64,000 nt of DNA, taken from a phage. The notes beneath the pieces were generated by a model. That model was not told the origin of the DNA and searched no databases. It saw only the letters and a program-made list of their open reading frames with translations. The DNA lies in sequence record PZ027503.1. The stretch is one strand, 5' to 3'. Positions 4,171 through 60,345 of this stretch are shown piece by piece. The first letter of the stretch is position 1, and every line of letters starts with the position of its first letter. A program made the translations under genes and the position numbers.

Positions 4171-4179
4171 GGAGAAAAA

Positions 4180-5276: not shown

Positions 5277-5687
5277 ATGTCATTAGTAAATACTACAACT
5301 TGGGCTACCGTAAGCATGTCTACTGTAATGTCTACCCCTATCTGGAAACTAGAATCAAATAAACACAATGGCAATATCCCACACGAGAAACAAAATGCTG
5401 TTATTAGAGCGTCGCTTGTAATGCTGGGTATGGCTGAAGATTCACACTATTCTGTTGAGCGTAATGTGAATATCCGAAGCAATAACGATAAGCGGGTAGT
5501 GTTTGCAAATACAACGCTTTTCACTTTCCCTGTTTCACCTAATTGTGGTTTTAAACGAATCTACCAAGAAAATGATATTTTTCATTTTGGTGATGAAGAA
5601 TTTACAGGTTGGGGTGCGTCACATATTAAGATGGATGATTTCGGTAACTCTTATGATCCTGCGAAAGCAGATGATACTAATCAATGA
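5277..5687 (+). CDS. hypothetical protein
   Basis: GAAGGAG RBS before ATG at 5277; 5' UTR hairpin GGGAGG/CCTCCC. Confidence 0.5.
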   Translation: MSLVNTTTWATVSMSTVMSTPIWKLESNKHNGNIPHEKQNAVIRASLVMLGMAEDSHYSVERNVNIRSNNDKRVVFANTTLFTFPVSPNCGFKRIYQENDIFHFGDEEFTGWGASHIKMDDFGNSYDPAKADDTNQ

Positions 5688-5695
5688 GAGGGACA

Positions 5696-5938
5696 ATGAC
5701 TGATAATAAATATGAAGGCTGTGAAATCGAAGTCTATTTTGATGAAACTGTTGGTTGTAATGTAACTGTAATTCTAGACACTTCAAAACGTTTATCTCCT
5801 AAAAGACAAGAAGCAGACCGTCGAGCAAAAGCAAAAGGGTTTGATGACATAACTCATTTTGAAGGTTTTCTATATGCTAATGGACTTTTTAATGAAATGA
5901 AGTTTGGTTATGATGTAGATGTTTTGAATATGCATTAA
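5696..5938 (+). CDS. hypothetical protein
   Basis: ORF with GAGAGGG RBS; start chosen at ATG 5696. Confidence 0.45.
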   Translation: MTDNKYEGCEIEVYFDETVGCNVTVILDTSKRLSPKRQEADRRAKAKGFDDITHFEGFLYANGLFNEMKFGYDVDVLNMH

Positions 5939-5954
5939 TAATAGGGAGGAGAAG

Positions 5955-8195: not shown

Positions 8196-8203
8196 TGAAA
8201 CTA

Positions 8204-8222
8204 GGGGCTTCGGCCCCTTTTT
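8204..8222 (+). terminator. intrinsic terminator
   Basis: GGGGC-ttcg-GCCCC hairpin followed by TTTTT. Confidence 0.6.
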
Positions 8223-8239
8223 ATTGAGGAGAATTTTAA

Positions 8240-9325: not shown

Positions 9326-9534
9326 TGATTTTGAGATGTGTTGGTATAATCGACACATTCAAAGACGTTTTTGACAAAGGGGCTTCTTATGAAGCCTCCG
9401 AAATGAAGAATGGTTTTTGTGATGTATTCGGTAAACGCCTGAAGAAAAACGGCGATCCTTGGCTAGGAGTTATGTCTTGTGGTCATATTATTGTAAATGG
9501 TGTTGCCAAGTTTGAAATAATTAAGGAGGAATAA
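9325..9534 (+). CDS. hypothetical protein
   Basis: ORF in track; start overlaps nrdB stop. Confidence 0.45.
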   Translation: MILRCVGIIDTFKDVFDKGASYEASEMKNGFCDVFGKRLKKNGDPWLGVMSCGHIIVNGVAKFEIIKEE

Positions 9535-9680
9535 TGGCTGAAAAACTTATTTTTTGTCCTGTGTGCGGTGGGACTGGACAGATGGAAGTGGAAATTATGG
9601 TAACATTTCCTTGCCTGAATTGTCATGGTGAGGGACGAGTAGTAGTCTTTGAAAAAGAAGAGGTGGAAGATGGAGAATGA
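9534..9680 (+). CDS. small zinc-ribbon protein (48 aa)
   Basis: Below track cutoff; CPVCGG...CLNCHG; TAATG overlap with upstream stop; GGAGGA RBS. Confidence 0.35.
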   Translation: MAEKLIFCPVCGGTGQMEVEIMVTFPCLNCHGEGRVVVFEKEEVEDGE

Positions 9681-9834
9681 AAAAGAGTATGTCCGTATTC
9701 CACGAGAATTAACAGATCACATTGCAGAAGCAATAGCTTTCGAAGCTAGATGTTGTGGAGGCATTGCTTACGATATTTATGAAGCAATTATTAAAGCTGC
9801 TCAAGAAGAGGAGGAGATGAAAAATGGGTATTGA
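9670..9834 (+). CDS. hypothetical protein
   Basis: ORF in track; start set at ATG 9670 (track begins at TTG 9649). Confidence 0.35.
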   Translation: MENEKEYVRIPRELTDHIAEAIAFEARCCGGIAYDIYEAIIKAAQEEEEMKNGY

Positions 9835-10150
9835 TATCGAATGGCGTATGTTACAGGGTGCACCTTTTAATAAGTGGGAAGAGGCTGTAGGAGAAGATCC
9901 TAGAATTGAAGAAGAATTTGACGGAGATTTTAACTGGTTCTTACAAGAAGGTCTGGACTTAAGTCGCATCTCTCCTTTCTACGATGCTGATGAGTCTTAT
10001 TGCATATATGGTATTTATTTAGAAGGCGGAGAAGGAAGCGTAGCTGTAGATCTTGAGCAATTAAATGAGAATGCAAAAGAAGCCTATGCAGAGCTACTTG
10101 AAAAATATAACATTAAAACGGAAACTATTATTTCTCAACATGTCTGGTAA
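9824..10150 (+). CDS. hypothetical protein
   Basis: ORF in track; acidic protein. Confidence 0.5.
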   Translation: MGIDIEWRMLQGAPFNKWEEAVGEDPRIEEEFDGDFNWFLQEGLDLSRISPFYDADESYCIYGIYLEGGEGSVAVDLEQLNENAKEAYAELLEKYNIKTETIISQHVW

Positions 10151-10159
10151 GGAGAGAAA

Positions 10160-10726
10160 ATGAAAGTAGAAAAAACAAAAATTGAAGGTGCGGTAATTAT
10201 CAAACCAGACGTTTATAAAGATGATCGTGGTTTCTTTTTAGAAACATATAATGAACAAAAATACGAAGATATTATTGGTAGACAAACTTTCGTTCAAGAT
10301 AACATGTCTAAATCAAACTTCGGTGTTTTGCGAGGAATGCACTTCCAAACAAACAACCCGCAAGGTAAGCTTGTTCGTTGTGTAAGTGGAGAAGTATTGG
10401 ATTTCGCTGTAGATTTACGTAAAGATAGTCCAACTTACGGTGCTTGGGACGGTGTTGTTCTTCGTGCACGACACCATACGCAGTTTTGGCTTCCACCTGG
10501 TTTGGCACATGGTTTTATAGTTTTGAGTATGGATGCTATCTTTGAATACAAATGCACAACTCCATACGACCCTTCTAGCGAACAAAGTTTACGTTGGGAT
10601 GATCCTGATATAGGGATCGATTGGGGATTTGATATGATTTTTGATGAAGATTTTAAACCTATTTTATCAACAAAAGATGCAATGGCTAAATCTTTTCAAC
10701 AGCTACGTAGTGAGGGTGTATGCTAA
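10160..10726 (+). CDS. rmlC: dTDP-4-dehydrorhamnose 3,5-epimerase-like cupin (RmlC-like)
   Basis: DDRGFFLETY, LRGMHFQ, KLVRCVSGEVLDFAVDLRKDSPTYG match RmlC hallmark motifs; 188 aa. Confidence 0.75.
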   Translation: MKVEKTKIEGAVIIKPDVYKDDRGFFLETYNEQKYEDIIGRQTFVQDNMSKSNFGVLRGMHFQTNNPQGKLVRCVSGEVLDFAVDLRKDSPTYGAWDGVVLRARHHTQFWLPPGLAHGFIVLSMDAIFEYKCTTPYDPSSEQSLRWDDPDIGIDWGFDMIFDEDFKPILSTKDAMAKSFQQLRSEGVC

Positions 10727-11562
10727 CATATCTGGTATTAGGTGGTAATGGACAACTGGGACAAGCTTTACGTAAAGTGGTTCCTTCGAATGTATCTTTA
10801 ATTTATCCTAAAGAACGTGTAGATATTACAAATTTTGAAGCTGTGCGAAACGCTATTGTTGAAGATTATGTAGACGGTGTTATTAACTGTGCTGCTTATA
10901 CGGCTGTAGATAAAGCAGAACATGATTTTGCTACTGCTTTGGCTGTTAATGCGTATGGACCTGCAAATATTGCGGCAGTGTGCAGCAAACTTAAAATTGA
11001 TTTTGTGCATATTTCTACAGATTATATTTTTAATTATTCTCATCCTATTTTTGAAGATACTACACCTAACCCAATAAACAATTATGGGTATACGAAAGAA
11101 CTTGGTGAAAAAATGGTGCGAGGAGTTAACCCAAATGCATATATTATTCGAACAGCCTCGGTATATAGCGAATTTGGAAATAACTTTCTAAAAACCATGT
11201 TGTCTCGCTATAATGATGGACAACGTGATTTTATTGTTGTTGCTGATCAGTTCTCTTGTCCAACATATGCTCCAGATTTAGCAGAAGCTATTTTTGAAGT
11301 ATTAAAAACAGGTTGGTCAAGGTCTGTTAAGACTTACCATTTTGCAGGAAGCCATCTTATTTCTTGGGCGGAGTTTGCGGAAAAGATCTTGACACAGATG
11401 CCAGAACCTGTTAAGATATCGGCGGTATCAGCTTCAACCTATAATGCTCCAGCAGCACGTCCGGTGAAGTCACAACTAGTAACCAGTCACTATCTTACAA
11501 AATCAGATTTAAATAAAGGTATTGAACAGTCTTTAGCAGTATTACTTAATAAGGAGAGGTAA
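10720..11562 (+). CDS. rmlD: dTDP-4-dehydrorhamnose reductase-like (RmlD-like) NAD(P)-binding protein
   Basis: N-terminal LVLGGNGQLGQAL Rossmann motif, ISTDYIF; 280 aa; overlaps rmlC-like stop. Confidence 0.7.
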   Translation: MLTYLVLGGNGQLGQALRKVVPSNVSLIYPKERVDITNFEAVRNAIVEDYVDGVINCAAYTAVDKAEHDFATALAVNAYGPANIAAVCSKLKIDFVHISTDYIFNYSHPIFEDTTPNPINNYGYTKELGEKMVRGVNPNAYIIRTASVYSEFGNNFLKTMLSRYNDGQRDFIVVADQFSCPTYAPDLAEAIFEVLKTGWSRSVKTYHFAGSHLISWAEFAEKILTQMPEPVKISAVSASTYNAPAARPVKSQLVTSHYLTKSDLNKGIEQSLAVLLNKER

Positions 11563-11822
11563 TGGAATTTGTAATTTTTGGTAAACCTAACTGTCAATTT
11601 TGCGAAATGTCAAAACAACTATTAACCATGCGCAATAAACAGTTTGAATATTTAAGTCTTGATCAAGACTATGATTTAGAATCAATGACTAAAACAGTTG
11701 TTGATCTTACCGGAGTTCCTCCACGCACATTTCCACAAATTCTGTCTGAAGTGAACGGGGAGGTAACATACGTAGGCGGTTTTACCGAACTGCGTGATCT
11801 CATGGCTCAAATTGCGGAGTAA
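11562..11822 (+). CDS. nrdC: glutaredoxin/thioredoxin-like protein (NrdC-like)
   Basis: CQFC active-site pair near N-terminus, 86 aa, resembles T4 NrdC. Confidence 0.6.
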   Translation: MEFVIFGKPNCQFCEMSKQLLTMRNKQFEYLSLDQDYDLESMTKTVVDLTGVPPRTFPQILSEVNGEVTYVGGFTELRDLMAQIAE

Positions 11823-11827
11823 CAATT

Positions 11828-11977
11828 ATGAAAAGTAAACAGAAACGTAAGATCTTTTCTCGTGCTTTGGCAAATGAGCTGAAGTCCAACATAAAGAAAA
11901 CGAAACCAAAACGTGAAACTTCTCCAGAACATCTGTTGTTTAACGAGTTGGATCACGGAGTAGGAGACGACGAATAG
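11828..11977 (+). CDS. small basic protein (49 aa)
   Basis: Below track cutoff; ATG 11828 to TAG 11975-11977. Confidence 0.3.
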   Translation: MKSKQKRKIFSRALANELKSNIKKTKPKRETSPEHLLFNELDHGVGDDE

Positions 11978-11984
11978 GAAGTAA

Positions 11985-12485
11985 ATGGCTAAAGTAGTAG
12001 ATGAGTTTGATATGCTACGAGTCGATGAAGGACTGAAGCTTACTGTTTATCAAGACCATCTTGGTTATTGGACAGTCGGCATAGGACACCTTCTGACTAA
12101 AATAAAAGATAAAGCAAAGGCTATTCAAATCTTAGATAATCTTCTTGGTCGTAAGACTAATGGAGTTATCACAGAAAAAGAAGCCCGTCAAATCTTTGCT
12201 GACGATGTTGCAAAAGTGAAGAGAGACATAAAAAACAGTACTATCTTATCACCAATCTATGATAAGGTTAGTGATACTCGTAAATTGGGAATAATTAACA
12301 TGGTTTTCCAGTTGGGGTTAAAAGGTGCTGAAGGGTTTCAAAATAGCTTGACTTTAATCAGCAATGCATATTATACTCAAGCAGGTAAAAACATGCGTAA
12401 AAGCCGATGGTATAGCCAGACGCCAAACCGTGCTGAACGAGTAATTAAAGTTCTGACTTCTGGAACTTTAGATGCTTACAACTAA
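11985..12485 (+). CDS. T4-type lysozyme (glycoside hydrolase family 24 endolysin)
   Basis: MLRVDEGLKLTVYQDHLGYWTVGIGHLL and KSRWYSQTPNRAERVIKVLTSGTLDAY closely parallel T4 lysozyme. Confidence 0.9.
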   Translation: MAKVVDEFDMLRVDEGLKLTVYQDHLGYWTVGIGHLLTKIKDKAKAIQILDNLLGRKTNGVITEKEARQIFADDVAKVKRDIKNSTILSPIYDKVSDTRKLGIINMVFQLGLKGAEGFQNSLTLISNAYYTQAGKNMRKSRWYSQTPNRAERVIKVLTSGTLDAYN

Positions 12486-12489
12486 TAAA

Positions 12490-12503
12490 GGGGCTTCGGC
12501 CCC
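12490..12503 (+). terminator. terminator-like hairpin (weak U-run)
   Basis: GGGGC-ttcg-GCCCC then TTCTAAAA. Confidence 0.35.
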
Positions 12504-12522
12504 TTCTAAAAGGAGTGCTACT

Positions 12523-13281
12523 ATGGGAAATAAAACCGCAGCTAAAACACAACGGCAGAAACTGGCTAATTCAGCAAAGATTGAAAGCCGTTATGCAGCA
12601 AAAGCGGTAGGTAATGACGATTACCGTTTAGATGAATTTATGCCTGAAGGGGACCAAAATAAGATTGTTCAAAGCATGATCTGGAATGATCTGACTGTTG
12701 TAAATGCTCCGGCAGGGACTGGTAAAACATCTGTTGCTTTATGGAAAGCTTTGCAGATGCTTCGTTCAGGAGACTTCCGTAAACTACTTTTTATCAAGAA
12801 CCCTACTGAAGTCGGAGATGACCAGATTGGTTTCTTGTCTGGGGATAAAACAGATAAACTAGCAGCACACTATGAATCTACAAAACGTATTTTCCAGCAA
12901 TTCATGACAGCCAACAAATTGGAAAACGATATTGGATCAGGTAAGATCGAATTGAATATTCCTAACTATTTGTTGGGGGCTACCCTGGATAATACAATCG
13001 TCATTATTGACGAAGCACAACTTATGTCAACAGAAACACTTAAACTTCTTATTGAACGTGCAGGTATTAATACGCATGTTATTGTATTAGGCGATGTTCG
13101 CCAGACATATGCAATTAAAAAACGTAGCAATGGTCTGCATCAAATTTTGGAACTTTTATATCCAGAAAATGAAGAAGGTGTTCGTGAGCCAATTGTAGAT
13201 TTTATTGGATACGTTGAACTGACAACGGACGATAATAAACGTGGACGTTTGTCTAAACTGATTACTGAAGTGTTTATTTAA
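12523..13281 (+). CDS. phoH: PhoH-like ATPase
   Basis: Walker A NAPAGTGKT, Walker B-like IVIIDEAQ; start set at ATG 12523 after AAAAGGAG. Confidence 0.85.
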   Translation: MGNKTAAKTQRQKLANSAKIESRYAAKAVGNDDYRLDEFMPEGDQNKIVQSMIWNDLTVVNAPAGTGKTSVALWKALQMLRSGDFRKLLFIKNPTEVGDDQIGFLSGDKTDKLAAHYESTKRIFQQFMTANKLENDIGSGKIELNIPNYLLGATLDNTIVIIDEAQLMSTETLKLLIERAGINTHVIVLGDVRQTYAIKKRSNGLHQILELLYPENEEGVREPIVDFIGYVELTTDDNKRGRLSKLITEVFI

Positions 13282-13316
13282 TAACATGGCAGGGAAGCCA
13301 TTTATAAGGAGGATTG

Positions 13317-13817
13317 ATGGGTGTAGCAACAATAGCTATCGGAAGAAGCGGTATAGATGAGTGCTATCAAACGGGACTCGTAAAACCTAACGAATTTCGT
13401 CAAATTTGTGTAAACCATATTGAAAAAGAGATTGCTCTTACTTTAGAGAATATGACCCTCCGAGATAAACTGGAAATGTTTAAATGTTGGTGTCTAGGAG
13501 AAGATTGGCTTTTAAACCATTTTCAAGAACTTTCTGATAGTAAAGAAAGCTTGTTTGATTGTATAATAGGAATAGCTGGCTCCGATCCTAGCCTTCTGCA
13601 CATAACAGAAGAAGAGGCGAAGTTACTGTTCTTAAGTAATTTGTTTAATAAGAAAGCACTGCTTGTTCGTGATTGCAGTGATCTTCTTAATAACCCGCTC
13701 GCAACGTCTGATCAAATTTTTGTTGACAAAGAGACACTACGTGCGATAGAATACATCTGCAAATATGTGAATGGCGGGAAAGCGGTTCTTAAAACGTTAA
13801 CAGAGGAGGAAGAATAG
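13317..13817 (+). CDS. hypothetical protein
   Basis: ORF in track; AAGGAGGA RBS. Confidence 0.5.
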   Translation: MGVATIAIGRSGIDECYQTGLVKPNEFRQICVNHIEKEIALTLENMTLRDKLEMFKCWCLGEDWLLNHFQELSDSKESLFDCIIGIAGSDPSLLHITEEEAKLLFLSNLFNKKALLVRDCSDLLNNPLATSDQIFVDKETLRAIEYICKYVNGGKAVLKTLTEEEE

Positions 13818-14509
13818 TGACGACAATTATTGCGACCAAAAATAAGATTTTGAGTGACGGTAAGGTAACTTTTGGTGGACGTGTAGATTCTATTAATTTC
13901 AAAAAGGTCCGAAAAATTGGAGATTACCTTGTAGGTGGTGCTGGTCGTCTGACCTCCGTGCTTTCTTTCTTTCAATGGTTTGAACAAAATCTACAGTGCG
14001 AAGCAGCACGTGATGCTGTCCCTGGTTTGATGATTCACTCTGATCCAGATAAAGAAGATGAAGAGTTTATTGCACTTGTTGTTCATCCAGACGGACGTAT
14101 TTTCCTGCACGAAGGTAACAACCCAACACGTGCATATCCGATTGATGAAGAATATTATGCGGTAGGAAGCGGGTCAGACTTTGCTTTAGCTGCTCTTGAT
14201 GCAGGAGCAACACCAGAACAGGCTATGGAAGTAGCTAAAAAGCGAGATGCTTTTTCTGGTGGTGAAACATTTATTGAAGAACAAGATGAGATTATTGAAT
14301 TAACAGATGATGATTTAGAAAACTTCTCCAAAGAAGAATTAATCAATCTTTTGAAATTCGGTAATCCCTACGGTGAAGAAGAACCTCGTAACGTGGCAGG
14401 TAACGAGGCGGATACTGAAGAAAAATCTGTTGCAGAAAACAACTTGACTTCTAAATCTGAAAATATTAATCTCGTAAATGTGGCGGATTTCGAAGGAACC
14501 GCTATTTAA
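13817..14509 (+). CDS. HslV/proteasome-like Ntn-hydrolase peptidase with acidic C-terminal tail
   Basis: N-terminal MTTII (Thr right after Met), KKVRK, GGAG, AVGSGSDFALAALDAG parallel HslV; GTG start after GAGGAGGAAG. Confidence 0.55.
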   Translation: MTTIIATKNKILSDGKVTFGGRVDSINFKKVRKIGDYLVGGAGRLTSVLSFFQWFEQNLQCEAARDAVPGLMIHSDPDKEDEEFIALVVHPDGRIFLHEGNNPTRAYPIDEEYYAVGSGSDFALAALDAGATPEQAMEVAKKRDAFSGGETFIEEQDEIIELTDDDLENFSKEELINLLKFGNPYGEEEPRNVAGNEADTEEKSVAENNLTSKSENINLVNVADFEGTAI

Positions 14510-14515
14510 CAAACT

Positions 14516-14529
14516 GCCCCTTCGGGGGC
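14516..14529 (+). terminator. terminator-like hairpin
   Basis: GCCCC-ttcg-GGGGC then ATTTCTT. Confidence 0.35.
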
Positions 14530-14554
14530 ATTTCTTAAACATAGGAGATTAATA

Positions 14555-14989
14555 ATGTTACAAGTTCCTGCTAAGTTTGTTGAAGGCGCTATCCACTCTT
14601 ACCGTCAAACATGTAAGAGGGCAAGAAACTGTTTAGATGGTCTGGTGGCAAAAACCTATACTGTTGAAAAGAAGAAACGTTGGTTTGGCAAAGATGTTTA
14701 CGAAGTTAATATTTTTGGTGAACATAAACTAAACCATGATACTCCTGAAAACATGTTAGAAATATTTCTAAGAGATGACAAAATATCTCCTATGGATTAC
14801 CAACTTTTAAAATTTTATGATTCTTCTTTGGCTATTGATAAGTTTGTTGAAGATATTCTGTCTAGAAAAACAGATAAAAACACTTATCCTCTAGAAGCTG
14901 ATCAAATAGGATTATTAAACGAGATTTCATCCTTTAAAGAGTTGGATAATATTACAAAAGAGGAGATTTTAGATGGCATTAGATTATGA
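14555..14989 (+). CDS. hypothetical protein
   Basis: ORF in track; GGAGA RBS. Confidence 0.5.
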   Translation: MLQVPAKFVEGAIHSYRQTCKRARNCLDGLVAKTYTVEKKKRWFGKDVYEVNIFGEHKLNHDTPENMLEIFLRDDKISPMDYQLLKFYDSSLAIDKFVEDILSRKTDKNTYPLEADQIGLLNEISSFKELDNITKEEILDGIRL

Positions 14990-15482
14990 TCGCCCAACGA
15001 GCGATTATTATCCGACACCGCAAAAAGCAATCAATAGTTTGTTTAGTGTTATAGATTTCAAAAATCTAAAGGAAGAAGGTTGGGTTTTTGCAGAACCTTG
15101 CAGAGGTGAAGCTGAAGCGATTTATCGCCATTTTCCTGAAGGTTCGGAATATTGCGAACTTGAAGAAGGTAAAGATTATTTTAGTCATGAATGGGAAAAT
15201 CGTCCCGACATTATAATCACAAACCCTCCATTTAAGTTAGCAATGGAGTTCTTGGAAAAGAGCTTAAAAGAGGCGGATGTTTGTATTTATCTTCTTCGGT
15301 TGGGCTTCTTGGAGTCAAAGAAACGACGAGAGTTCCATCAAAAGAATCCACCAACAAACCTTATAGTCCTTTCAGAACGGCCTTCGTTTGTTGCAGGTGG
15401 AACAGATAAGACAGCATACGCTTGGTATGTATACGACCCAAAGAATCGTTTGGGCCTCTCTCAACCATTTTATTTTGTTTAA
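14973..15482 (+). CDS. putative N6-adenine DNA methyltransferase (small phage Dam-like)
   Basis: DYYPTP near N-terminus and IIITNPPF motif; 169 aa. Confidence 0.45.
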   Translation: MALDYDRPTSDYYPTPQKAINSLFSVIDFKNLKEEGWVFAEPCRGEAEAIYRHFPEGSEYCELEEGKDYFSHEWENRPDIIITNPPFKLAMEFLEKSLKEADVCIYLLRLGFLESKKRREFHQKNPPTNLIVLSERPSFVAGGTDKTAYAWYVYDPKNRLGLSQPFYFV

Positions 15483-23287: not shown

Positions 23288-23773
23288 ATGTTTCAAGTAA
23301 ATGTCAATGTGCATAATAGTTACTCTGATTGTGAAACGTGTGGCTATAATTCATCTAATGTTATTCGTATTAGTGGCGATTTAGGAGAAGCTTCTTTTGG
23401 AGAAGAAGCAAGTTGCTTTAGTGGTATGGATGCAGAATGGAATGATATTGCACATTGGTTAGTGAGCAAACTAAAAGAAAAAGAGAAACCATTTCCTACT
23501 CTGCTTGATCGTTCTCTTGTGGAAGATGCAGGTAAAGCATACGCAGACTATGCGTATGCAGACGGGAAATATTTGGAAGATGATAAGGCTAACCATTTGC
23601 TTTATGTTTACTATGAAGCTGAATCTGCCTACGATAATTATTACAGCATGTCTAACATCCTACGTCTGTTTGCAGAGTTTGATATTTATTTCGAAGTAGA
23701 ATTTTCAGAAGATGATACTTACGAGTACAATTCTTATGATCCATTTGAGGAGGAAGAATGCCAAGACGAGTGA
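23288..23773 (+). CDS. hypothetical acidic protein
   Basis: ORF in track; GGAGGGA RBS. Confidence 0.5.
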   Translation: MFQVNVNVHNSYSDCETCGYNSSNVIRISGDLGEASFGEEASCFSGMDAEWNDIAHWLVSKLKEKEKPFPTLLDRSLVEDAGKAYADYAYADGKYLEDDKANHLLYVYYEAESAYDNYYSMSNILRLFAEFDIYFEVEFSEDDTYEYNSYDPFEEEECQDE

Positions 23774-24573
23774 TTTTTGTAAGCGGTGCAGGTTTAAGTG
23801 CAGACAGTGGGATTCGAACATTTAGAACAGACACAGATAGTGGTCGTGCTTTATGGGAAGAATATGATTTAGAAGAGGTCTGCGATATTGGAGCTTTCCA
23901 AGCAGGTTATCGTGTTAGAACATCTCCAGATCTTCCAGTGGTCGGTGGTGTAGACGAGAACGGTATGGATTTGTATGCCAAAACACACGAATTTTATAAC
24001 AAAAGACGTGTTGAGCTTAAAGATGTACAACCTAATGCTGCACATATTCAAATAGCAAAGTGGTTTAAGGAATATCCTAACCAAATAGTAAACTTGACAA
24101 CAAACGTTGATGATCTACTAGAGCGAGCAGGTGTAGACAGAGATTCTGTTATTCACGTACACGGCTATCTTCCTGAAGTAGTTTACCGTATGCATCCTGG
24201 AGATTACAAAACACTGGTAGATATTGGTTACAATAGTATAAACATAGATGATTATAACTGGGTGAAGCCTAATGTTGTATTTTTTGGTGAGGCTGCACCT
24301 TTGTATGCAGATATGGCTCACTTGTTCGATACTTTGACCATGCAAGATTTGGTTGTAGTAGTAGGATGTTCAAACCAAGTTATCAATTTTAATTGGGAAT
24401 TATTTCCTGCACTTAGTATGGGTACAAAAATGGTTGTAGTTAACCCTGGAGTTAATTACGAAGAAACACTTCTCTATGAAGATCGTGGAGTTTTTGTTTA
24501 CCGAGAAAAAGCTGCAACAGCCTTCAGCAATGAAGGTTTCATTAAAATGGTCGAAGACCACTTAAACAAATAA
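23758..24573 (+). CDS. Sir2-family (sirtuin/CobB-like) protein lacking the zinc-ribbon cysteines
   Basis: GAGLSADSGIRTFR, QPNAAHIQIAKW, TTNVDDLLERAG, VIHVHG, VVFFGE parallel CobB; the Cys4 segment is absent. Confidence 0.8.
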   Translation: MPRRVIFVSGAGLSADSGIRTFRTDTDSGRALWEEYDLEEVCDIGAFQAGYRVRTSPDLPVVGGVDENGMDLYAKTHEFYNKRRVELKDVQPNAAHIQIAKWFKEYPNQIVNLTTNVDDLLERAGVDRDSVIHVHGYLPEVVYRMHPGDYKTLVDIGYNSINIDDYNWVKPNVVFFGEAAPLYADMAHLFDTLTMQDLVVVVGCSNQVINFNWELFPALSMGTKMVVVNPGVNYEETLLYEDRGVFVYREKAATAFSNEGFIKMVEDHLNK

Positions 24574-31403: not shown

Positions 31404-32075
31404 CTATTTAATGTTAAGTCTGGCACACAAACGAGAAACAGTTTTAGCATCCCATTTACCACCACGTGCTGTTGCTATTTTCTTACTGTTGAATTTTTCA
31501 GCAATAGTTTTGTAAGGTGTATTTAAATCTCTAAGGATCTCCAAACGTTCACGGAATGTCTCTGCAAAAGCATCTGCTTTAACAGAGTTGTATTCCATTT
31601 TTCCTTTTCTACGCGCAGCGGCAGTTTTAGGATTAGCACTGCCTAATAAAACACCTTTGCTTTTTGCTACAGCAAGACCCTTTTTAATACGATCAGCAAT
31701 ACCTCTAACCTCTTGTTCAGCCAGAACAGACAGAAGCTGTATAACCATTTTATCTGCATCTGGCATAATGGCTATCTTAACATCAATCATTTCTAGAAGA
31801 GTTGCTACGGAGGCGTTGTTACGACCCAAGCGGTCAACTTTAGCTACCAATAAAGTTGCTCCGGTAGCTTTACACATTTCAACCGCTTTAACCAGTTCCT
31901 TACGTTGCTTCCAATCGCCCTTACCCGAATAGTATTCAGAAAATTGACCAATAACTTCCGCATCAGGCACAGAGTCTAAGAAGTAACGGATATCGTTCTC
32001 TTGGCTCTCCATACCATATTGTGCCTCGCCTTTTTTCTGTTTAGAAAGACGACTGTAAACAACAAACTTTTTCAT
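31404..32075 (-). CDS. small serine recombinase (resolvase/invertase family)
   Basis: YSRLS...SQE catalytic region, KVDRLGRN, LAEQEVRGIADRIKKGLAVAKSKG, C-terminal HTH; start ATG 32075 after AGGAG; TTGACA-17-TAAAGT upstream. Confidence 0.8.
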   Translation of the reverse strand: MKKFVVYSRLSKQKKGEAQYGMESQENDIRYFLDSVPDAEVIGQFSEYYSGKGDWKQRKELVKAVEMCKATGATLLVAKVDRLGRNNASVATLLEMIDVKIAIMPDADKMVIQLLSVLAEQEVRGIADRIKKGLAVAKSKGVLLGSANPKTAAARRKGKMEYNSVKADAFAETFRERLEILRDLNTPYKTIAEKFNSKKIATARGGKWDAKTVSRLCARLNIK

Positions 32076-32145
32076 AACCACTCCTAAACCATTGCTGTAT
32101 TCTCACTTTACAAAATGAATAAACACTTGTCAAGGTATTTATTAT

Positions 32146-55967: not shown

Positions 55968-56234
55968 ATGACAAATACTACATTACACCTTATGCACTCA
56001 TTGGGCTGGCAAGGCGGCACGGTGCACCAGGTAGCAAGCGCAACGGGCTTAAAGGTTGAAACAGTTCTCAACCTGGGCGATCATAAGGTGGAAGAGATAG
56101 ATCATTTTGATTCGTTCGCTGATGGTTATTTATGGGCTTGCAGTGGCGGCGGGGAAAGCAAGATACCGCCAGGGGAGCGGGGTAATATGTATTTTTGGTT
56201 AGGTGTCCTATCCTGGCAAGAAGATAAAAAATAA
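55968..56234 (+). CDS. hypothetical protein (lone plus-strand gene inside minus-strand block)
   Basis: 88-aa ORF with AAGGG RBS; GC-richer than surroundings. Confidence 0.45.
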   Translation: MTNTTLHLMHSLGWQGGTVHQVASATGLKVETVLNLGDHKVEEIDHFDSFADGYLWACSGGGESKIPPGERGNMYFWLGVLSWQEDKK

Positions 56235-56262
56235 TCTTGACAAGCCCAGGGATCGGGCTTAT
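56234..56262 (+). promoter_or_regulatory. sigma70-like promoter
   Basis: TTGACA, 17-bp spacer, TATACT; no sizeable ORF downstream. Confidence 0.5.
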
Positions 56263-56269
56263 ACTGTTT

Positions 56270-56480
56270 TACATACAGAAGAGGAAGCGCCACCCCACGG
56301 CGTAAAGGCGGGGCTAACATACCAGGGCGCTGGTTGGAAGGTTGATCGCCGGTAGGCTGGGCGCTATATATTTGTAAAGAAATGTAAAGATAAAATAATC
56401 GCTTGCTTTCCTGGCTGGATCTGTTATTCTTATTACATGGCGAGGGGACACGGGAGCGCGAGACAAACACCACCCCTGCG
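56270..56480 (+). ncRNA. candidate non-coding transcribed region (unclassified)
   Basis: Downstream of consensus promoter; GC-rich with several potential helices; no ORF over 20 codons. Confidence 0.2.
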
Positions 56481-56493
56481 CGTCATTCTCTAG

Positions 56494-56507
56494 ATGAGAA
56501 TGATTAT
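56494..56507. repeat. ATGAGAATGATTAT direct repeat, copy 2
   Basis: Identical to 43794-43807; lies in Fur-box-like near-palindrome GAGAATGATTATCATTC. Confidence 0.4.
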
Positions 56508-56617
56508 CATTCACCTTATTAAATAAGAATCAATCTCATTTATAAACTTAAATGCGAATCATTATCATTTGCATTTCCATATGAGAACTCTTCTCATTCT
56601 CACCTGCATAAATTTTT

Positions 56618-56660
56618 GTAAACTTTAAATTTTGCTTTTGTACTTTCATTTTTGTAAAAG
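56618..56660. repeat. about 40-bp direct repeat, copy 1 (AAACTTTAAATTTTG...TTTTGTAAA)
   Basis: About 35 of 39 positions identical to copy at 56756-56798; period about 138 bp. Confidence 0.5.
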
Positions 56661-56755
56661 CAAAAAAACTTTAAATACTGTGGGCGCGCAAAATTTTTAA
56701 AATTTTCCTTGACTTTTGAGTTTTGTTTTGTATCTAACATTTTAAGATAATTTTC

Positions 56756-56798
56756 CTAAACTTTAAATTTTGGTTTTCAACTTTCACTTTTGTAAATT
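56756..56798. repeat. about 40-bp direct repeat, copy 2
   Basis: See 56618-56660; each copy followed by a shorter related AAAACTTTAAATA motif. Confidence 0.5.
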
Positions 56799-56957
56799 CT
56801 TAAAAAGTTTAAATAATTTGAGGGATTTTTGAGATAATGGATAGTGGGAATTTGATATAACCTTTAATCTTATTAGTAGACCTTCAGGAACCCACTTAGA
56901 TCGAATCCTAGTGATGCAAACTGAAAAAGATAAGGGTTTGTATAGGACAAAATAACA

Positions 56958-56990
56958 GGCTCTCTACGGTGCTGTAGGAGCCTTATTTCT
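56958..56990. terminator. bidirectional terminator-like hairpin
   Basis: GGCTC.CTAC-ggtgct-GTAG.GAGCC followed by TTATTTCT (plus) and TGTTATTTTG (minus). Confidence 0.45.
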
Positions 56991-57038
56991 ATGCTACAAA
57001 GTGACACCTTTGTTCTAAAAATGAAAAAAGTTAAAATA

Positions 57039-57581
57039 TCACAAATATCGTCTTTGCGGTATTTTGTCTGGGAAAAGTATTTCGATCAGTTTATTATGAT
57101 ATTTACCTAAAAGATTCTGCCCTTTCCAGGTGGCAGGGTTTAGCACCCCTGGTTCATACATCCCCATTCCAATTCCGTAAACCTTATCGTAGGGGCTTGC
57201 TTCAACAAACGTTTTGTATTGGTAAAGGTGTAAGTCTGCATACAAATCTGGATTCTGTACATATTTCAAGCATAAACCTCGCATAACAATACGCTCACGG
57301 TTCTCTTCCCATACGTTGTTATCAAAATCCGACACTGCCCTACCCATACGTTTGTAATAAGCTTGGATCTTCTCATCTTTCCGTATCAAACTATGAGTCA
57401 GAATAGCCTGTGCAGTGTTGTGATCATTAAAAAGCAAAGCTTTACGCCACATCATGTATTGTTCGACACAATTAAATGTCTGATTGTAACCTGGTTCGGT
57501 TTCTGTAAAGGGTGCAATATACCAATTACTAAAAACATCTTTATGTGAAAAGAAGAATACATAATCATCAGTTATTCGCAT
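57039..57581 (-). CDS. NADAR-domain protein (YbiA-like, DUF1768)
   Basis: FFFS...FSNW, VEQYMMWRKALLF, KRMGR, VEASPYDKVYGIGMG, NLLGK follow the YbiA/NADAR pattern. Confidence 0.75.
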   Translation of the reverse strand: MRITDDYVFFFSHKDVFSNWYIAPFTETEPGYNQTFNCVEQYMMWRKALLFNDHNTAQAILTHSLIRKDEKIQAYYKRMGRAVSDFDNNVWEENRERIVMRGLCLKYVQNPDLYADLHLYQYKTFVEASPYDKVYGIGMGMYEPGVLNPATWKGQNLLGKYHNKLIEILFPDKIPQRRYL

Positions 57582-57756
57582 TTTTCATACTCTCCAAAAT
57601 TTCACGTTGCCCTTGCTGATAGGCTTTCATCAGAACTACTTTAAGGTTTGTCTCCAAGAGGTCTTCATTGTAATTATACCGCTCCACAACATATGTCAAT
57701 TCATCATAAAGATCAAGAACGGGGTAGAATACAGGGTTATCTGCTAAACGTGCCAT
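57568..57756 (-). CDS. hypothetical protein
   Basis: Track ORF trimmed to ATG 57756 after AAAGGAGAAA. Confidence 0.4.
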   Translation of the reverse strand: MARLADNPVFYPVLDLYDELTYVVERYNYNEDLLETNLKVVLMKAYQQGQREILESMKNANN

Positions 57757-57769
57757 AATTTCTCCTTTG

Positions 57770-58135
57770 TTAGTCCATCCACCAGTAGCCATAAACTGCG
57801 TCTGCGTCGATGAGTTTGTGTTTGTTGTTTCGCATGTAGTCTAAGATAAGTAGACGTTTATTGTATCTGGAGAGATTATGACCCTCTTTTCCGCCATAGT
57901 CAAAATATTTTGCAAGATCTTTGCACTCAAACAAAATTAGTTCGGGAGTTTCTTCACACTGGTCTGTCTGGTACACTTGACGAATGATCATGTATACATC
58001 ATCGTCTTCCGCTAAATGCTCTACTGGTCCACATCCAGCAGGAACAAATTCATAGTCCCATCTGATCAGATGTTTCTCTACTGCTTCAAAGAAGTCCATT
58101 CTTTCGTTGCGCATAATTTGAACGTCAACTAACAT
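57770..58135 (-). CDS. hypothetical protein
   Basis: ORF in track; AGGAGGAAAC RBS. Confidence 0.5.
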   Translation of the reverse strand: MLVDVQIMRNERMDFFEAVEKHLIRWDYEFVPAGCGPVEHLAEDDDVYMIIRQVYQTDQCEETPELILFECKDLAKYFDYGGKEGHNLSRYNKRLLILDYMRNNKHKLIDADAVYGYWWMD

Positions 58136-59136
58136 GTTTCCTCCTGTAATATTCCACCATAAAGTTTATAAATGTTTTGTATTGATGCCAGACAAGATAG
58201 CTCCACTGTTTCTGTGTAGCCGTCTGGCATAGCATATTTGCTCACTGCTTCTGTGTCTAACACCTTTTTGCAATACTTTTCTGAATTTTTGCACTGCTTC
58301 ACAGTGGGGAACTGCCACACTTGAACTTGTCTCATAGTAAACACATTGCGGCTATTCTGTTCTTTGATACGGCGATCACTACTATTGGCAATACCAAACT
58401 TCAGTGCACAAAGAATACCATCTTCATCATAAATATGATTAATGTAACATTGTTGTTGGTTTTGGCCCCCGCACTGCGGACACCCACTCCCCTTATGTAG
58501 CAAACCATCTGCACGCCCTATCTGTTCCCCGTGCTCCTTACATCCATATTTAAACTTACCCATTGTTGAAGGTTTACCGATCCATCCTACCCATATATAT
58601 CCTCTCCTTTCTACTTCCTTTCTTGTTCTATAGGTGGTCTGATCCTCTGTGTATTTGTAACTTGTAGAACAGCGGCAAGGGAGACACCCACGTTTAAGAT
58701 GACTTCCGGTAGCATAGAATTTACCATCACACACCCCAGCTTCCACATATTCATCATGAGAGCAAACAGGACATTCAACCATCCATACTATATCACACCC
58801 TTTACGTTCCCCTGTATTGGTGAAAATAGTGCCTTCCTTAAATTTACCTACCTTCATAAAATCTTGTATGTGTTGCTGGTCTGGAATAGTGATAGCTTTG
58901 CTTCTCTTTTTCGAACGTTCCCTGTAGGCGCACTTAGGACAACCTCGACCATCTTTAAAACTGTGAAACGTTGTAGTATTCCATTCATGACCATGCTCAC
59001 AACGATTGATCATCTTCGTATGCACACCTTTATCTTCTCCATACGTGCCGAGAATGGTAATCCCTTTAGCCTCAGCTATCGGCTTACATTCTTCCATATA
59101 TGTTTCAATACTCTTCTTTACTGGCATATCTAACAA
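58129..59136 (-). CDS. Cys-rich protein with repeated G-x-G-C-P-x-C zinc-ribbon-like motifs
   Basis: CEHGHEW...GRGCPKC, ECPVC, RGCLPCRC, GSGCPQCGG; 335 aa. Confidence 0.45.
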   Translation of the reverse strand: MLDMPVKKSIETYMEECKPIAEAKGITILGTYGEDKGVHTKMINRCEHGHEWNTTTFHSFKDGRGCPKCAYRERSKKRSKAITIPDQQHIQDFMKVGKFKEGTIFTNTGERKGCDIVWMVECPVCSHDEYVEAGVCDGKFYATGSHLKRGCLPCRCSTSYKYTEDQTTYRTRKEVERRGYIWVGWIGKPSTMGKFKYGCKEHGEQIGRADGLLHKGSGCPQCGGQNQQQCYINHIYDEDGILCALKFGIANSSDRRIKEQNSRNVFTMRQVQVWQFPTVKQCKNSEKYCKKVLDTEAVSKYAMPDGYTETVELSCLASIQNIYKLYGGILQEETC

Positions 59137-59164
59137 TTCTCTTCCTATTAAACTGAAATCAATA

Positions 59165-59188
59165 TAACAAAACCCGCCGAAGCGGGTT
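59165..59188 (-). terminator. intrinsic terminator (minus strand)
   Basis: ACCCGC-ttcg-GCGGGTT followed by TTTGTT on minus strand, just after ATPase stop. Confidence 0.5.
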
Positions 59189-59205
59189 TAGCTATTTGTG
59201 CTGTA

Positions 59206-60345
59206 TCAGAATACGCTACCCAGTGTGGTAGATCGCTGCGTTACAGGCTCCAGCACCACTCGCAGAGTGTTTCCTGGTGTAGTGCTCATCACCAGGATCT
59301 TACCACCTTCAATCAGATCACAAGTTAGACCATCAGCAGTTGCACATAGATCAATATGTGGGTCGCCATCTTCGTCTAGGATAACATAACTATTGGTTTC
59401 CATTGCTTCCACTTCATCATCTTTCAAGCTTTGTAGATAGATGTTCAAGGAACAAGCACCCGACAAAAACTTAGTAGGGGTAAAGTCGTGCCAGTTATTG
59501 ATCCAATTCACCTTCAAGGTTTTACCATTAGCTACAATAGAAGCCACATTCCATTTAGCATCATTGCCTAAAGAAATACCCATCATTTCAAGACATTCTT
59601 TAAAAGTCATTTTTGGATAGAAATTCAATTCTTCTACAATGCCTTGAATAACATCGAAAGACAACTCTGTGCTAACATCCCATAAACGTTGGAAGTTATC
59701 TACGTGTTTTTTATTTACCAAGTTCTTATCCAAGTAATCTAACATAGTTTCACTAGACAGTTTATCGTAATTGAAACTGTAGTAGATACGACTAGGACGG
59801 TTTACAAAATATTCCGAGATATAGCCACTATTTTTAGTGAGGATGTAAAGTTTATTCCCACTTCCTGTTCCATCCAACAAGGTCAACAGTGCTTCCTGAT
59901 CTTCTTTCTTAGCGTACACTTTATCAAATTCGTCAAATAAAACAACAGCACGATCTGTAATTTTACTCATAAATTCTAAGAAGCCAGCATCTGTGTAAGG
60001 CTGTGTAACCAAAATGGTTGGAATACCTAAACCTTCTGTGGACATTAGAGACATGCTAATCAGTTTAGCTAACATCGTCTTACCACTGCCTTTTGTCCCT
60101 GTCAGTAACACCCCAGTATTTTTACCTTCTTTACTACGACGAGCAAATGTTTTAATAACATGTGCGGCGCGATCTTTAGTTTCCCCATAAAGAGTGTTCG
60201 GAAGAGAGAAACTTTCGCCACGCACTAAAGAGTAGTTACCGTGCGGATCGCAGTTGACAACCCAAACTCCAGCAGGAAGTTTATTAGCTTCAACACCATA
60301 TTCCTTATTTACAACAGCCACATCTCCAAAAATAGTGTATTTCAT
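59206..60345 (-). CDS. P-loop ATPase (AAA-like)
   Basis: Walker A LTGTKGSGKT, Walker B VVLFDEFD; 379 aa; TAATG coupling to upstream gene. Confidence 0.6.
   Translation of the reverse strand: MKYTIFGDVAVVNKEYGVEANKLPAGVWVVNCDPHGNYSLVRGESFSLPNTLYGETKDRAAHVIKTFARRSKEGKNTGVLLTGTKGSGKTMLAKLISMSLMSTEGLGIPTILVTQPYTDAGFLEFMSKITDRAVVLFDEFDKVYAKKEDQEALLTLLDGTGSGNKLYILTKNSGYISEYFVNRPSRIYYSFNYDKLSSETMLDYLDKNLVNKKHVDNFQRLWDVSTELSFDVIQGIVEELNFYPKMTFKECLEMMGISLGNDAKWNVASIVANGKTLKVNWINNWHDFTPTKFLSGACSLNIYLQSLKDDEVEAMETNSYVILDEDGDPHIDLCATADGLTCDLIEGGKILVMSTTPGNTLRVVLEPVTQRSTTLGSVF

What the first reader, a model, noticed from the sequence alone, without database searches (positions are those of the whole stretch)
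57039..57581. NADAR (YbiA-like) domain protein, a candidate ADP-ribosylation reversal enzyme
Clear YbiA/NADAR pattern (FFFS..FSNW, VEQYMMWRKALLF, KRMGR, VEASPYDKVYGIG). NADAR proteins are associated with NAD and ADP-ribose metabolism, and some hydrolyse ADP-ribose from modified guanine in DNA, reversing DarT-type toxin/defense activity. In a phage this is a plausible counter-defense or DNA-repair function. It sits at the edge of the repeat-rich noncoding region, just upstream of a bidirectional terminator.
Basis: partly seen in the sequence, partly recalled or inferred. Interest (0 to 1): 0.6.

Follow-up and report, generated by a model that had tools for sequence, protein, structure and literature searches.

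The report
Phage NADAR enzyme, likely anti-DarTG1 factor
This is a real, well-conserved phage gene for a NADAR-family enzyme, and its counterpart in a sister phage genus has been shown to strip ADP-ribose from DNA and defeat the bacterial DarTG1 defence. It is therefore a sound but expected find.

Summary
The ORF at 57039..57581 (minus strand, 180 aa) is a genuine NADAR-domain gene. It hits Pfam PF08719 at E 7.8e-36. The AlphaFold2 model (pLDDT 95.5) superposes on the ADP-ribose-bound Phytophthora NADAR 8BAU (TM 0.79). All ADP-ribose-contacting and catalytic residues are kept (E40, K47, K77, R81, W91, R95, E127, D132). dN/dS among relatives is about 0.05.

The window is a Phapecoctavirus (phAPEC8-like coliphage). 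The gene is the syntenic ortholog, at 59% identity, of the NADAR of BASEL phage Bas60. That protein was published in 2025 as AdfN^Bas60. It neutralises the guanine-specific DNA ADP-ribosyltransferase DarT1 and rescues phages on DarTG1 hosts, but not on DarTG2 hosts.

The expected target is guanine-ADP-ribose made by DarT1, not thymine-ADP-ribose made by DarT2.

It is not a DarG1-type antitoxin: it has no N-terminal extension, carries Glu rather than Asp at the catalytic position, and has no DarT next to it. It is not a T4-type AdfN either. The database labels "GTP cyclohydrolase II" and "riboflavin N-glycosidase" do not discriminate between these roles.

Activity of this particular protein is untested. 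I rate it a new member of a known kind, of modest interest.

The parts
57039..57581 (-). NADAR-domain CDS, 180 aa. It is the predicted DNA guanine-ADP-ribose glycohydrolase and the ortholog of AdfN^Bas60.
   Evidence: ORF. Pfam PF08719 E 7.8e-36. AF2 pLDDT 95.5 with Foldseek 8BAU TM 0.79. 59% identity to Bas60 bas60_0111. dN/dS about 0.05.
57590..57595 (-). Shine-Dalgarno GGAGAG, 8 nt upstream of the ATG. The start codon lies inside the last codons of the upstream ORF, giving a 14-nt overlap that suggests translational coupling.
   Evidence: Read directly from the sequence.
56957..56983 (.). Bulged GC-rich hairpin (AGGCTC-T-CTACG / loop / TGTAG-GAGCCT). It is followed by GTTATTTTGT on the minus strand and TATTTCTAT on the plus strand. 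It is the likely intrinsic terminator closing the NADAR operon, and possibly works in both directions.
   Evidence: Folds of 56925-57040 (z -3.1 and -2.6). The equivalent ARNold terminator is annotated in phAPEC8. The simple scan did not flag it.
57568..57792 (-). Upstream co-directional small ORF (74 aa, phrog_22330, function unknown). It is context only. It is present in Phapecoctavirus and absent between the CapR gene and the NADAR gene in Bas60.
57770..58135 (-). Upstream co-directional ORF (121 aa, phrog_24465, function unknown). Context only.
58129..59136 (-). CapR-homology/zinc-finger protein, annotated 'endonuclease'. It is a conserved neighbour of the NADAR gene in both genera (56% identity to bas60_0110). 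Context only.
59206..60345 (-). AAA-type ATPase (phrog_2376). It is a conserved upstream gene in the same transcription direction (64% identity to bas60_0109). Context only.

Best explanation
The gene encodes a stand-alone ('orphan') NADAR ADP-ribosyl-glycohydrolase of the AdfN^Bas60 type.

During infection of a host carrying DarTG1, or another guanine-directed DNA ADP-ribosyltransferase, the toxin DarT1 attaches ADP-ribose to the N2 of guanines in phage DNA and blocks replication. The phage enzyme binds the ADP-ribose moiety: K47, R81, W91 and R95 hold the diphosphate, F86 stacks on the adenine, and E40 and E127 hold the distal ribose. It then hydrolyses the N-glycosidic bond between ribose and guanine. 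This releases free ADP-ribose and restores intact DNA, so replication proceeds.

It works catalytically on the lesion and does not bind the toxin, so it should work against any enzyme that makes the same adduct. It should not remove thymine-ADP-ribose made by DarT2.

Shown here: domain identity, fold, conservation of the active site, purifying selection, and orthology and synteny with the tested Bas60 protein. Inferred: the enzymatic activity and the counter-defence role of this particular protein.
For: - Domain identity: NADAR profile hits.
- Fold: a confident AF2 model (pLDDT 95.5, pTM 0.89). Its only significant PDB neighbours are NADAR with ADP-ribose, 8BAU (TM 0.79, E 8e-10), and YbiA 2B3W (TM 0.66).
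- Active site: residues that contact ADP-ribose in 8BAU (E43, K50, K75, R79, Y84, W89, R93, E125, D130, W133; PMC11543638) align to E40, K47, K77, R81, F86, W91, R95, E127, D132 and Y135. E40, K47, G80, W91, E127 and D132 are invariant in 83 homologs.
- Orthology: 59% identity (E 2e-69) over the full length to bas60_0111 of phage PaulScherrer = Bas60. Megablast with the near-identical Bas62 gene found one matching place in the Bas60 genome. The gene order ATPase, CapR protein, NADAR, terminator/noncoding region is shared.
- Published function of the ortholog: AdfN^Bas60 neutralises DarT1 toxicity without phage. It restores RB69, T5 and Bas25 plating on DarTG1 and has no effect on DarTG2 (PMC11825919).
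- Generality of the chemistry: all four E. coli/T4 NADAR subtypes tested hydrolyse guanine-ADP-ribose in vitro (PMC11125620).
- Selection: dN/dS 0.03-0.07.
- Location: the gene sits in a block of small genes of unknown function, with no riboflavin genes nearby.
Against: - No experiment exists on this protein or on any Phapecoctavirus NADAR. 41% of residues differ from the tested ortholog.
- In vivo rescue from DarT1 is clade-specific even though in vitro activity is general. YbiA and T4 gp30.3 fail to rescue uninfected cells.
- AdfN^Bas60 was tested by ectopic expression only in the passages read. No deletion in its native phage is described in the results or discussion sections read, so its natural target is not proven.
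- The protein carries the YbiA-type glutamate and exceeds the TIGR02464 'riboflavin intermediates N-glycosidase' cut-off.
- N88 replaces the Asp that contacts the proximal ribose in 8BAU, and Y135 replaces a Trp. Y135 is shared with Bas60; at the N88 position Bas60 has Glu.
Confidence: 0.72

Rival explanations
1. The enzyme is an ADP-ribose N-glycosidase, but its main physiological substrate is something other than DarT1-modified DNA. Candidates are ADP-ribosylated RNA, cytidine-ADP-ribose, products of other host or competitor ADP-ribosyltransferases, or low-molecular-weight ADP-ribose-derived immune signals. Under this reading the anti-DarT1 activity is one facet or a side activity.
For: - Iyer et al. 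2022 argue from context that phage NADARs mostly target soluble ADPr derivatives (PMC9503650).
- Some NADARs, including YbiA-type ones, also remove cytidine-ADP-ribose (PMC12945103).
- Schuller et al. note that non-DarT-linked NADARs may have other targets.
- The phage also encodes a Sir2-family NAD-dependent enzyme 33 kb away.
- The closest bacterial relatives are stand-alone with no DarT next to them.
Against: - The only experimental data for this clade show full rescue from DarTG1.
- No NADAR has yet been shown to degrade an immune signal.
- The Sir2 gene is not linked to the NADAR gene.
Confidence: 0.18
2. It is a YbiA-type housekeeping N-glycosidase. It would hydrolyse reactive riboflavin-pathway intermediates (5-amino-6-ribosylamino-uracil phosphate and its precursor) in the infected cell, as the database labels 'riboflavin biosynthesis intermediates N-glycosidase' and 'GTP cyclohydrolase II' suggest.
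For: - TIGR02464 at 113 bits, above the 73.7 cut-off.
- The YbiA-type conserved glutamate E127 is present.
- GenBank records for relatives carry 'GTP cyclohydrolase II' or 'YbiA-like N-glycosidase'.
Against: - The DarT1-neutralising AdfN^Bas60 scores the same on TIGR02464 (109 bits), so the label does not discriminate.
- Identity is only 30% to E. coli YbiA against 59% to Bas60.
- No Pfam match to a riboflavin-synthesis family among the 45 window ORFs scanned, which covers most ORFs of 140 aa or more.
- Johannesman et al. place the Bas60 clade outside the YbiA-like housekeeping group.
- The 'GTP cyclohydrolase II' name comes from RibA-fused homologs and matches no domain in this 180-aa protein.
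Confidence: 0.05
3. It is a decaying or functionless hitch-hiker gene with no role in infection.
For: It is the last gene of an operon, in a region rich in small genes of unknown function.
Against: - dN/dS is about 0.05.
- The active site is intact.
- tblastn hits at 80% identity or more in 71 phage records. Megablast with the Bas62 gene found the ortholog in 56 records, mostly Justusliebigvirus by name.
- A Shine-Dalgarno is present and the start overlaps the upstream ORF.
Confidence: 0.02

Closest known systems
AdfN^Bas60, anti-DarT factor NADAR of BASEL phages Bas60-62 (Justusliebigvirus, Stephanstirmvirinae; Johannesman et al., Nat Commun 2025, PMC11825919)
   Same: - 59% identity over the full length.
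- Nearly the same length: 180 against 183 aa.
- The same clade-specific features: Tyr instead of Trp in the D-x-x-(W/Y)-G motif, and an extra loop segment before YYKR(M/L)GR.
- The same genomic slot after the ATPase and CapR genes and before a terminator/noncoding region.
- Orphan: no toxin gene next to it.
   Different: - It comes from a different genus (Phapecoctavirus).
- 41% of residues differ.
- Two extra small ORFs lie between the CapR gene and the NADAR gene.
- It is untested experimentally.
Phytophthora nicotianae NADAR bound to ADP-ribose (PDB 8BAU; Schuller et al., Mol Cell 2023, PMC11543638)
   Same: - Best structural match (TM 0.79).
- YbiA-type Glu at the catalytic position.
- All ADP-ribose-contacting residues are conserved or conservatively replaced.
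- Not linked to a DarT.
   Different: - About 29% identity, and eukaryotic.
- Different loop insertions.
- D86 (8BAU) is N88 here, and W133 is Y135.
DarG1, the NADAR antitoxin of DarTG1 (E. coli C7, Geobacter lovleyi)
   Same: It belongs to the same superfamily and is predicted to perform the same chemical reaction, hydrolysis of guanine-N2-ADP-ribose. The E and K of the E-x6-K motif are shared.
   Different: - No N-terminal beta-beta-alpha extension: 180 aa against 229-234 aa.
- Glu (E127) rather than the DarG1-specific Asp at the catalytic position.
- No adjacent DarT1.
- The solved G. lovleyi NADAR structure was not among the matches in the profile search (E limit 0.01) or the Foldseek search of the PDB.
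AdfN^T4 (gp30.3) of T-even phages
   Same: [quoted passage not shown] The E-x6-K motif is shared.
   Different: - Only 18% identity.
- The T4 clade has His in place of the conserved Glu and needs another T-even factor for full activity.
- It was acquired independently.
E. coli YbiA (PDB 2B3W), riboflavin-intermediate N-glycosidase
   Same: - The same fold (TM 0.66).
- The conserved Glu/Lys/Glu/Asp set.
- Both exceed the TIGR02464 cut-off.
   Different: - 30% identity.
- YbiA is a chromosomal gene flanked by rhlE and dinG. The literature places it in a LexA-controlled, DNA-damage-induced operon.
- YbiA does not rescue DarT1 toxicity in vivo.

Membership tests
NADAR superfamily (Pfam PF08719 / DUF1768) | Significant match to the family profile over most of its length | tested here: met
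   E 7.8e-36, 124.2 bits against a cut-off of 35.1, profile positions 3-154 of 163.
NADAR superfamily (Pfam PF08719 / DUF1768) | Alpha-helical core flanked by two small beta-sheets (YbiA-like fold) | tested here: met
   AF2 pLDDT 95.5. The only significant PDB neighbours are 8BAU (TM 0.79) and 2B3W (TM 0.66).
NADAR superfamily (Pfam PF08719 / DUF1768) | Conserved E-x6-K pair (E88/K95 of E. coli C7 NADAR; E43/K50 of PnNADAR), needed for hydrolysis | tested here: met
   E40 and K47 are invariant in 83 homologs and align to E43/K50 of 8BAU.
AdfN, Bas60 type (orphan phage NADAR countering DarTG1) | Orthology with the tested protein (sequence and synteny) | tested here: met
   59% identity, E 2e-69. 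Flanking ATPase at 64% and CapR protein at 56% identity in the same order. The identification of bas60_0111 as AdfN^Bas60 is inferred: the paper's accession table is not held. Megablast with the near-identical Bas62 gene found one matching place in the Bas60 genome, and the record annotates it as a YbiA-like N-glycosidase.
AdfN, Bas60 type (orphan phage NADAR countering DarTG1) | No cognate toxin gene next to it (orphan) | tested here: met
   The neighbours scanned carry no ADP-ribosyltransferase or DarT domain. Pfam covered all four upstream genes; PADLOC covered the CapR protein and the ATPase.
AdfN, Bas60 type (orphan phage NADAR countering DarTG1) | Neutralises DarT1 toxicity and restores phage plating on DarTG1 but not on DarTG2 | not testable with these tools
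   This needs wet-lab assays. It is shown only for the Bas60 ortholog.
DarG1 antitoxin (BC4488-type NADAR) | N-terminal extension of the YbiA-like fold (beta1-beta2-alpha1), giving proteins of about 230 aa | tested here: not met
   The protein is 180 aa. The core beta-strand starts at residue 7 in the model and the Pfam match starts at residue 11. DarG1 lengths of 229-234 aa are from PMC11543638.
DarG1 antitoxin (BC4488-type NADAR) | Aspartate at the structural position of PnNADAR E125 (D171 in E. coli C7) | tested here: not met
   This position is E127, a glutamate, invariant in the clade.
DarG1 antitoxin (BC4488-type NADAR) | Encoded next to a DarT1 gene | tested here: not met
   No such neighbour. 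The gene lies in a phage genome.
AdfN, T4 type (gp30.3) | Histidine replacing the conserved glutamate, and sequence similarity to gp30.3 | tested here: not met
   Glu is retained (E127). Identity to gp30.3 is 18%.
YbiA-type riboflavin-intermediate N-glycosidase (TIGR02464) | Score above the TIGR02464 cut-off, with the conserved YbiA-type glutamate | tested here: met
   113.1 bits against a cut-off of 73.7. The feature does not discriminate, because AdfN^Bas60 scores 109.4 bits.
YbiA-type riboflavin-intermediate N-glycosidase (TIGR02464) | Fusion to, or clustering with, riboflavin genes (RibA/RibD), or a YbiA-like chromosomal context | tested here: not met
   It is a single-domain protein. No Pfam match to a riboflavin-synthesis family among the 45 window ORFs scanned, which covers most ORFs of 140 aa or more.
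YbiA-type riboflavin-intermediate N-glycosidase (TIGR02464) | Hydrolysis of riboflavin-pathway ribosylamino-pyrimidine intermediates | not testable with these tools
   This needs a biochemical assay.

The most novel reading that the evidence does not exclude
The Stephanstirmvirinae NADAR clade has a YbiA-type glutamate but is phage-adapted, with a Tyr135 signature and extra loops. It could be a broad-spectrum eraser of base-linked ADP-ribose (guanine and cytidine, on DNA and RNA). As such it would protect these broad-host-range phages against several still-unknown nucleic-acid ADP-ribosylating defences, not only DarTG1. A further possibility is that it acts together with the conserved upstream CapR/zinc-finger protein and AAA ATPase.
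Probability: 0.12. Interest if true: 0.55.

Novelty: new member of a known kind. Interest (0 to 1): 0.25.

Why it matters
Phapecoctaviruses are broad-host-range coliphages that are often proposed for therapy. Knowing that they carry a likely anti-DarTG1 enzyme helps predict which defence-carrying strains they can still kill. It also corrects a widespread mis-annotation, since relatives are labelled "GTP cyclohydrolase II" or "hypothetical protein". Scientifically it adds one more genus to a counter-defence class described in 2025. It opens no new question.

Tried and rejected
- **DarG1 antitoxin homolog.** Rejected: no N-terminal extension, Glu rather than Asp at the catalytic position, and no DarT neighbour. 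A profile of 83 homologs did not retrieve the solved G. lovleyi NADAR at E 0.01 or better.
- **"GTP cyclohydrolase II" label.** Rejected: the only Pfam domain is NADAR. The name is inherited from RibA-fused homologs.
- **Using TIGR02464 to tell a riboflavin N-glycosidase from an AdfN.** Not informative, because the experimentally anti-DarT1 Bas60 protein scores alike.
- **Linked ADP-ribose or NAD genes.** None lies near the gene. A Sir2-family gene sits 33 kb away. Most ORFs of 140 aa or more were scanned, but not smaller ones.
- **Structured RNA, tRNA or Rfam family in the adjacent noncoding region.** None found.
- **Simple terminator scan.** It missed the hairpin at 56957-56983. Folding and the phAPEC8 annotation support the hairpin.
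- **Accession of AdfN^Bas60.** The paper's supplementary tables are not held. The link to bas60_0111 therefore rests on the single matching place found in the Bas60 genome.
- **Literature search for DarTG tests on Phapecoctavirus.** Nothing relevant found.
- **Genomic context of the nearest bacterial relatives.** They are stand-alone or in a possibly prophage-like region, which gave no functional clue.

Full report
**1. The observation**

The ORF listing gives an ATG-initiated ORF at 57039..57581 on the minus strand, 180 aa.

The family assignment is strong:
- Pfam NADAR (PF08719): E 7.8e-36, 124 bits against a gathering score of 35.1, over 152 of 163 profile positions.
- phrog_1017: E 7.5e-52.
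- TIGR02464: 113 bits, above its 73.7 cut-off.
- PADLOC PDC-M42C: E 1e-35.
- One solved structure by sequence, the Phytophthora nicotianae NADAR 8BAU: E 3.8e-15.

A GGAGAG Shine-Dalgarno lies 8 nt before the ATG. The start overlaps the last codons of the upstream ORF.

Against the orthologs of phages Mt1B1_P17, tuntematon and phAPEC8, synonymous changes far outnumber non-synonymous ones (for example 32 against 10). This gives dN/dS of 0.03-0.07. The gene is real and under purifying selection.

**2. Where the window comes from**

Megablast of 56000-59200 finds 145 phage records. The best is Escherichia phage PNJ1809-36 at 98.1% over 100% of the query. Further matches include Mt1B1_P17, tuntematon and phAPEC8, all genus Phapecoctavirus, subfamily Stephanstirmvirinae.

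In those records the gene is labelled 'hypothetical protein' or 'GTP cyclohydrolase II (Uncharacterized domain COG3236)'.

tblastn finds NADAR homologs in 719 phage records. Of these, 71 are at least 80% identical (the phapecoctavirus group) and the rest are below 60%.

**3. Local anatomy**

The gene is the last of a long leftward gene string:
- AAA-type ATPase, 59206-60345.
- CapR-homology/zinc-finger 'endonuclease', 58129-59136.
- Two small ORFs of unknown function, 57770-58135 and 57568-57792.
- The NADAR gene.

A bulged GC-rich hairpin (56957-56983) lies 55 nt past the stop codon, with T-rich runs on both sides. The 116-nt stretch around it (56925-57040) folds with z -3.1 on the minus strand and -2.6 on the plus strand. 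phAPEC8 has an ARNold-predicted terminator annotated at the equivalent place. The simple consensus scan missed the hairpin.

Beyond it lies about 800 bp without a convincing ORF. This stretch contains 29-nt-spaced repeats and a 72-nt direct repeat in a 24-26% GC segment.

**4. Structure and active site**

An alignment of 83 homologs gave an AlphaFold2 model with mean pLDDT 95.5 and pTM 0.89. Foldseek against the PDB returns only two significant matches:
- 8BAU, NADAR in complex with ADP-ribose: TM 0.79, E 8e-10.
- E. coli YbiA, 2B3W: TM 0.66.

Schuller et al. (PMC11543638) list the residues that hold ADP-ribose in 8BAU. The chain numbering is offset by two residues from the paper's numbering. 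The HMMER alignments map them as follows:

| 8BAU residue (paper numbering) | Window protein |
|---|---|
| E43 | E40 |
| K50 | K47 |
| K75 | K77 |
| R79 | R81 |
| Y84 | F86 |
| D86 | N88 |
| W89 | W91 |
| R93 | R95 |
| E125 | E127 |
| D130 | D132 |
| W133 | Y135 |

E40, K47, G80, W91, E127 and D132 are invariant across the 83 homologs. The protein thus has the YbiA-type glutamate at the catalytic position. It has neither the aspartate of DarT1-linked antitoxins nor the histidine of T4-type phage NADARs.

**5. What is known about the closest relative**

Johannesman et al. (Nat Commun 2025, PMC11825919) showed three things:
- T4 gp30.3 (AdfN^T4) is a DNA ADP-ribosyl-glycohydrolase that counters DarTG1.
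- Two unrelated phage NADARs, AdfN^Bas32 and AdfN^Bas60, neutralise DarT1 in uninfected cells.
- These two also restore full titre of RB69, T5 and Bas25 on DarTG1 hosts, and leave DarTG2 defence untouched.

AdfN^Bas60 is shared by Bas60, Bas61 and Bas62. These three are the phi92-like phages, now genus Justusliebigvirus in the same subfamily as the window's phage.

Bas60 is phage PaulScherrer. Megablast with the near-identical Bas62 gene found one matching place in its genome, and the record annotates that gene, bas60_0111, as a 'putative YbiA-like N-glycosidase'. The window protein is 59% identical to it over the full length (E 2e-69).

The upstream genes are orthologous too: the ATPase at 64% and the CapR protein at 56% identity, in the same order. 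Both loci end at a noncoding region that holds a 267-nt ORF on the opposite strand. The window gene is therefore the positional ortholog of a published anti-DarTG1 factor.

**6. Most likely mechanism**

The shown and inferred steps need to be kept apart.
- Shown here: domain, fold, active-site conservation, purifying selection and orthology.
- Established by others: DarT1 links ADP-ribose to guanine N2 in ssDNA, NADARs hydrolyse that bond, and the Bas60 ortholog does so well enough in vivo to defeat DarTG1.
- Inferred: this protein does the same during Phapecoctavirus infection. It would clear ADP-ribose from phage DNA so that replication continues. It would act on the lesion, not on the toxin, and would not act on thymine adducts made by DarT2.

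I put this at about 0.72.

**7. Rival explanations**

- *A different main substrate (about 0.18).* The enzyme may chiefly target RNA, cytidine-ADPr or soluble ADPr-derived signals. Iyer et al. argued this for phage NADARs in general. Some NADARs remove cytidine-ADPr. For the Bas60 ortholog the passages read describe only ectopic expression.
- *A YbiA-like riboflavin damage-control glycosidase (about 0.05).* The TIGR02464 hit seems to favour this. However, AdfN^Bas60 scores the same, identity to YbiA is 30%, and no riboflavin genes are nearby.
- *A functionless remnant (about 0.02).* The selection analysis excludes this.

**8. Membership**

The protein is a member of the NADAR superfamily, with all testable criteria met. 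It matches the sequence and synteny criteria of the Bas60-type AdfN group. The defining activity could not be tested here.

It is not a DarG1-type antitoxin. It is 180 aa against about 230 aa and has no N-terminal extension. It has Glu, not Asp, at the catalytic position, and no DarT next to it. The solved DarG1 structure was not retrieved by the profile or fold searches.

It is not T4-type either, with 18% identity and no histidine substitution.

The nearest bacterial relatives (41-48% identity) are stand-alone NADARs, one in a possibly prophage-like region of Burkholderia, with no toxin neighbour. [quoted passage not shown]

**9. Novelty and verdict**

The concept was published in 2023-2025, and the direct ortholog has been tested.

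What remains new is small. The phapecoctavirus copy itself is uncharacterised and is mis-annotated in public records.

I classify it as a new member of a known kind and give it an interest score of 0.25.

The most novel reading still open is a broad eraser of base-linked ADP-ribose, possibly working with the conserved CapR/ATPase neighbours. I give that about 0.12.

Noticed in passing
window 56491-56605: Four near-palindromic elements at 29-nt spacing (for example GAGAATGATTATCATTC and GCGAATCATTATCATTT). By eye, from my own knowledge, they resemble the E. coli Fur-box consensus GATAATGATAATCATTATC. They could be operator or iteron sites. Phage tuntematon has a repeat_region annotated at the equivalent place.
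   Followed up: partly
window 56600-56900: A very AT-rich segment (24-26% GC) with a 72-nt direct repeat (56611-56682 and 56749-56820, 82% identical) and related 29-nt units. Together with the neighbouring repeats this layout looks like a replication origin or a regulatory hub.
   Followed up: partly
window 56237-56490: A near-consensus sigma70-type promoter (TTGACA-17-TATACT, 11 of 12) faces rightwards into a 200-nt GC-richer stretch with no ORF. There is no Rfam match, and the predicted fold is no more stable than shuffles (z +0.49). What it transcribes is unclear.
   Followed up: partly
window 23758-24573 (+): A phage-encoded Sir2-family protein (PF02146, E 1.9e-22). Matches to NCBIfam NAD-dependent deacylase (CobB-type) models fall below their cut-offs. 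It is an NAD-consuming enzyme in the same genome as the NADAR but 33 kb away.
   Followed up: no
window 10160-11562 (+): Adjacent homologs of RmlC (dTDP-4-dehydrorhamnose 3,5-epimerase, E 1e-66) and RmlD (reductase, E 1e-73) in a phage genome. This suggests phage-directed dTDP-sugar synthesis for an unknown purpose.
   Followed up: no
window 58129-59136 (-): The gene annotated 'endonuclease' has two matched stretches of the CapR homology domain plus a weak treble-clef zinc-finger match (DUF4379, below its cut-off). The Bas60 ortholog is about 130 aa longer and shows internal repeats of the same module. It is a conserved neighbour of the NADAR gene in both genera.
   Followed up: partly
window 31404-32081 (-): An ORF with a serine-recombinase (Resolvase N-terminal) domain, E 5e-18, in a virulent-type myovirus genome.
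   Followed up: no
window 1-15000 (+): A nucleotide-metabolism block: class I ribonucleotide reductase large and small subunits (5955-9325), a ThyX-like protein (4180-5178), an NT5C-type nucleotidase (3562-4170), PhoH (12472-13281) and a lysozyme (11985-12485). There are no tRNA genes anywhere in the window.
   Followed up: no
public records of relatives (for example NC_052662.1 JR327_gp037, PQ571289.1): The orthologous gene is widely mis-annotated as 'GTP cyclohydrolase II'. One Justusliebigvirus record labels it 'DNA methyltransferase'.
   Followed up: yes
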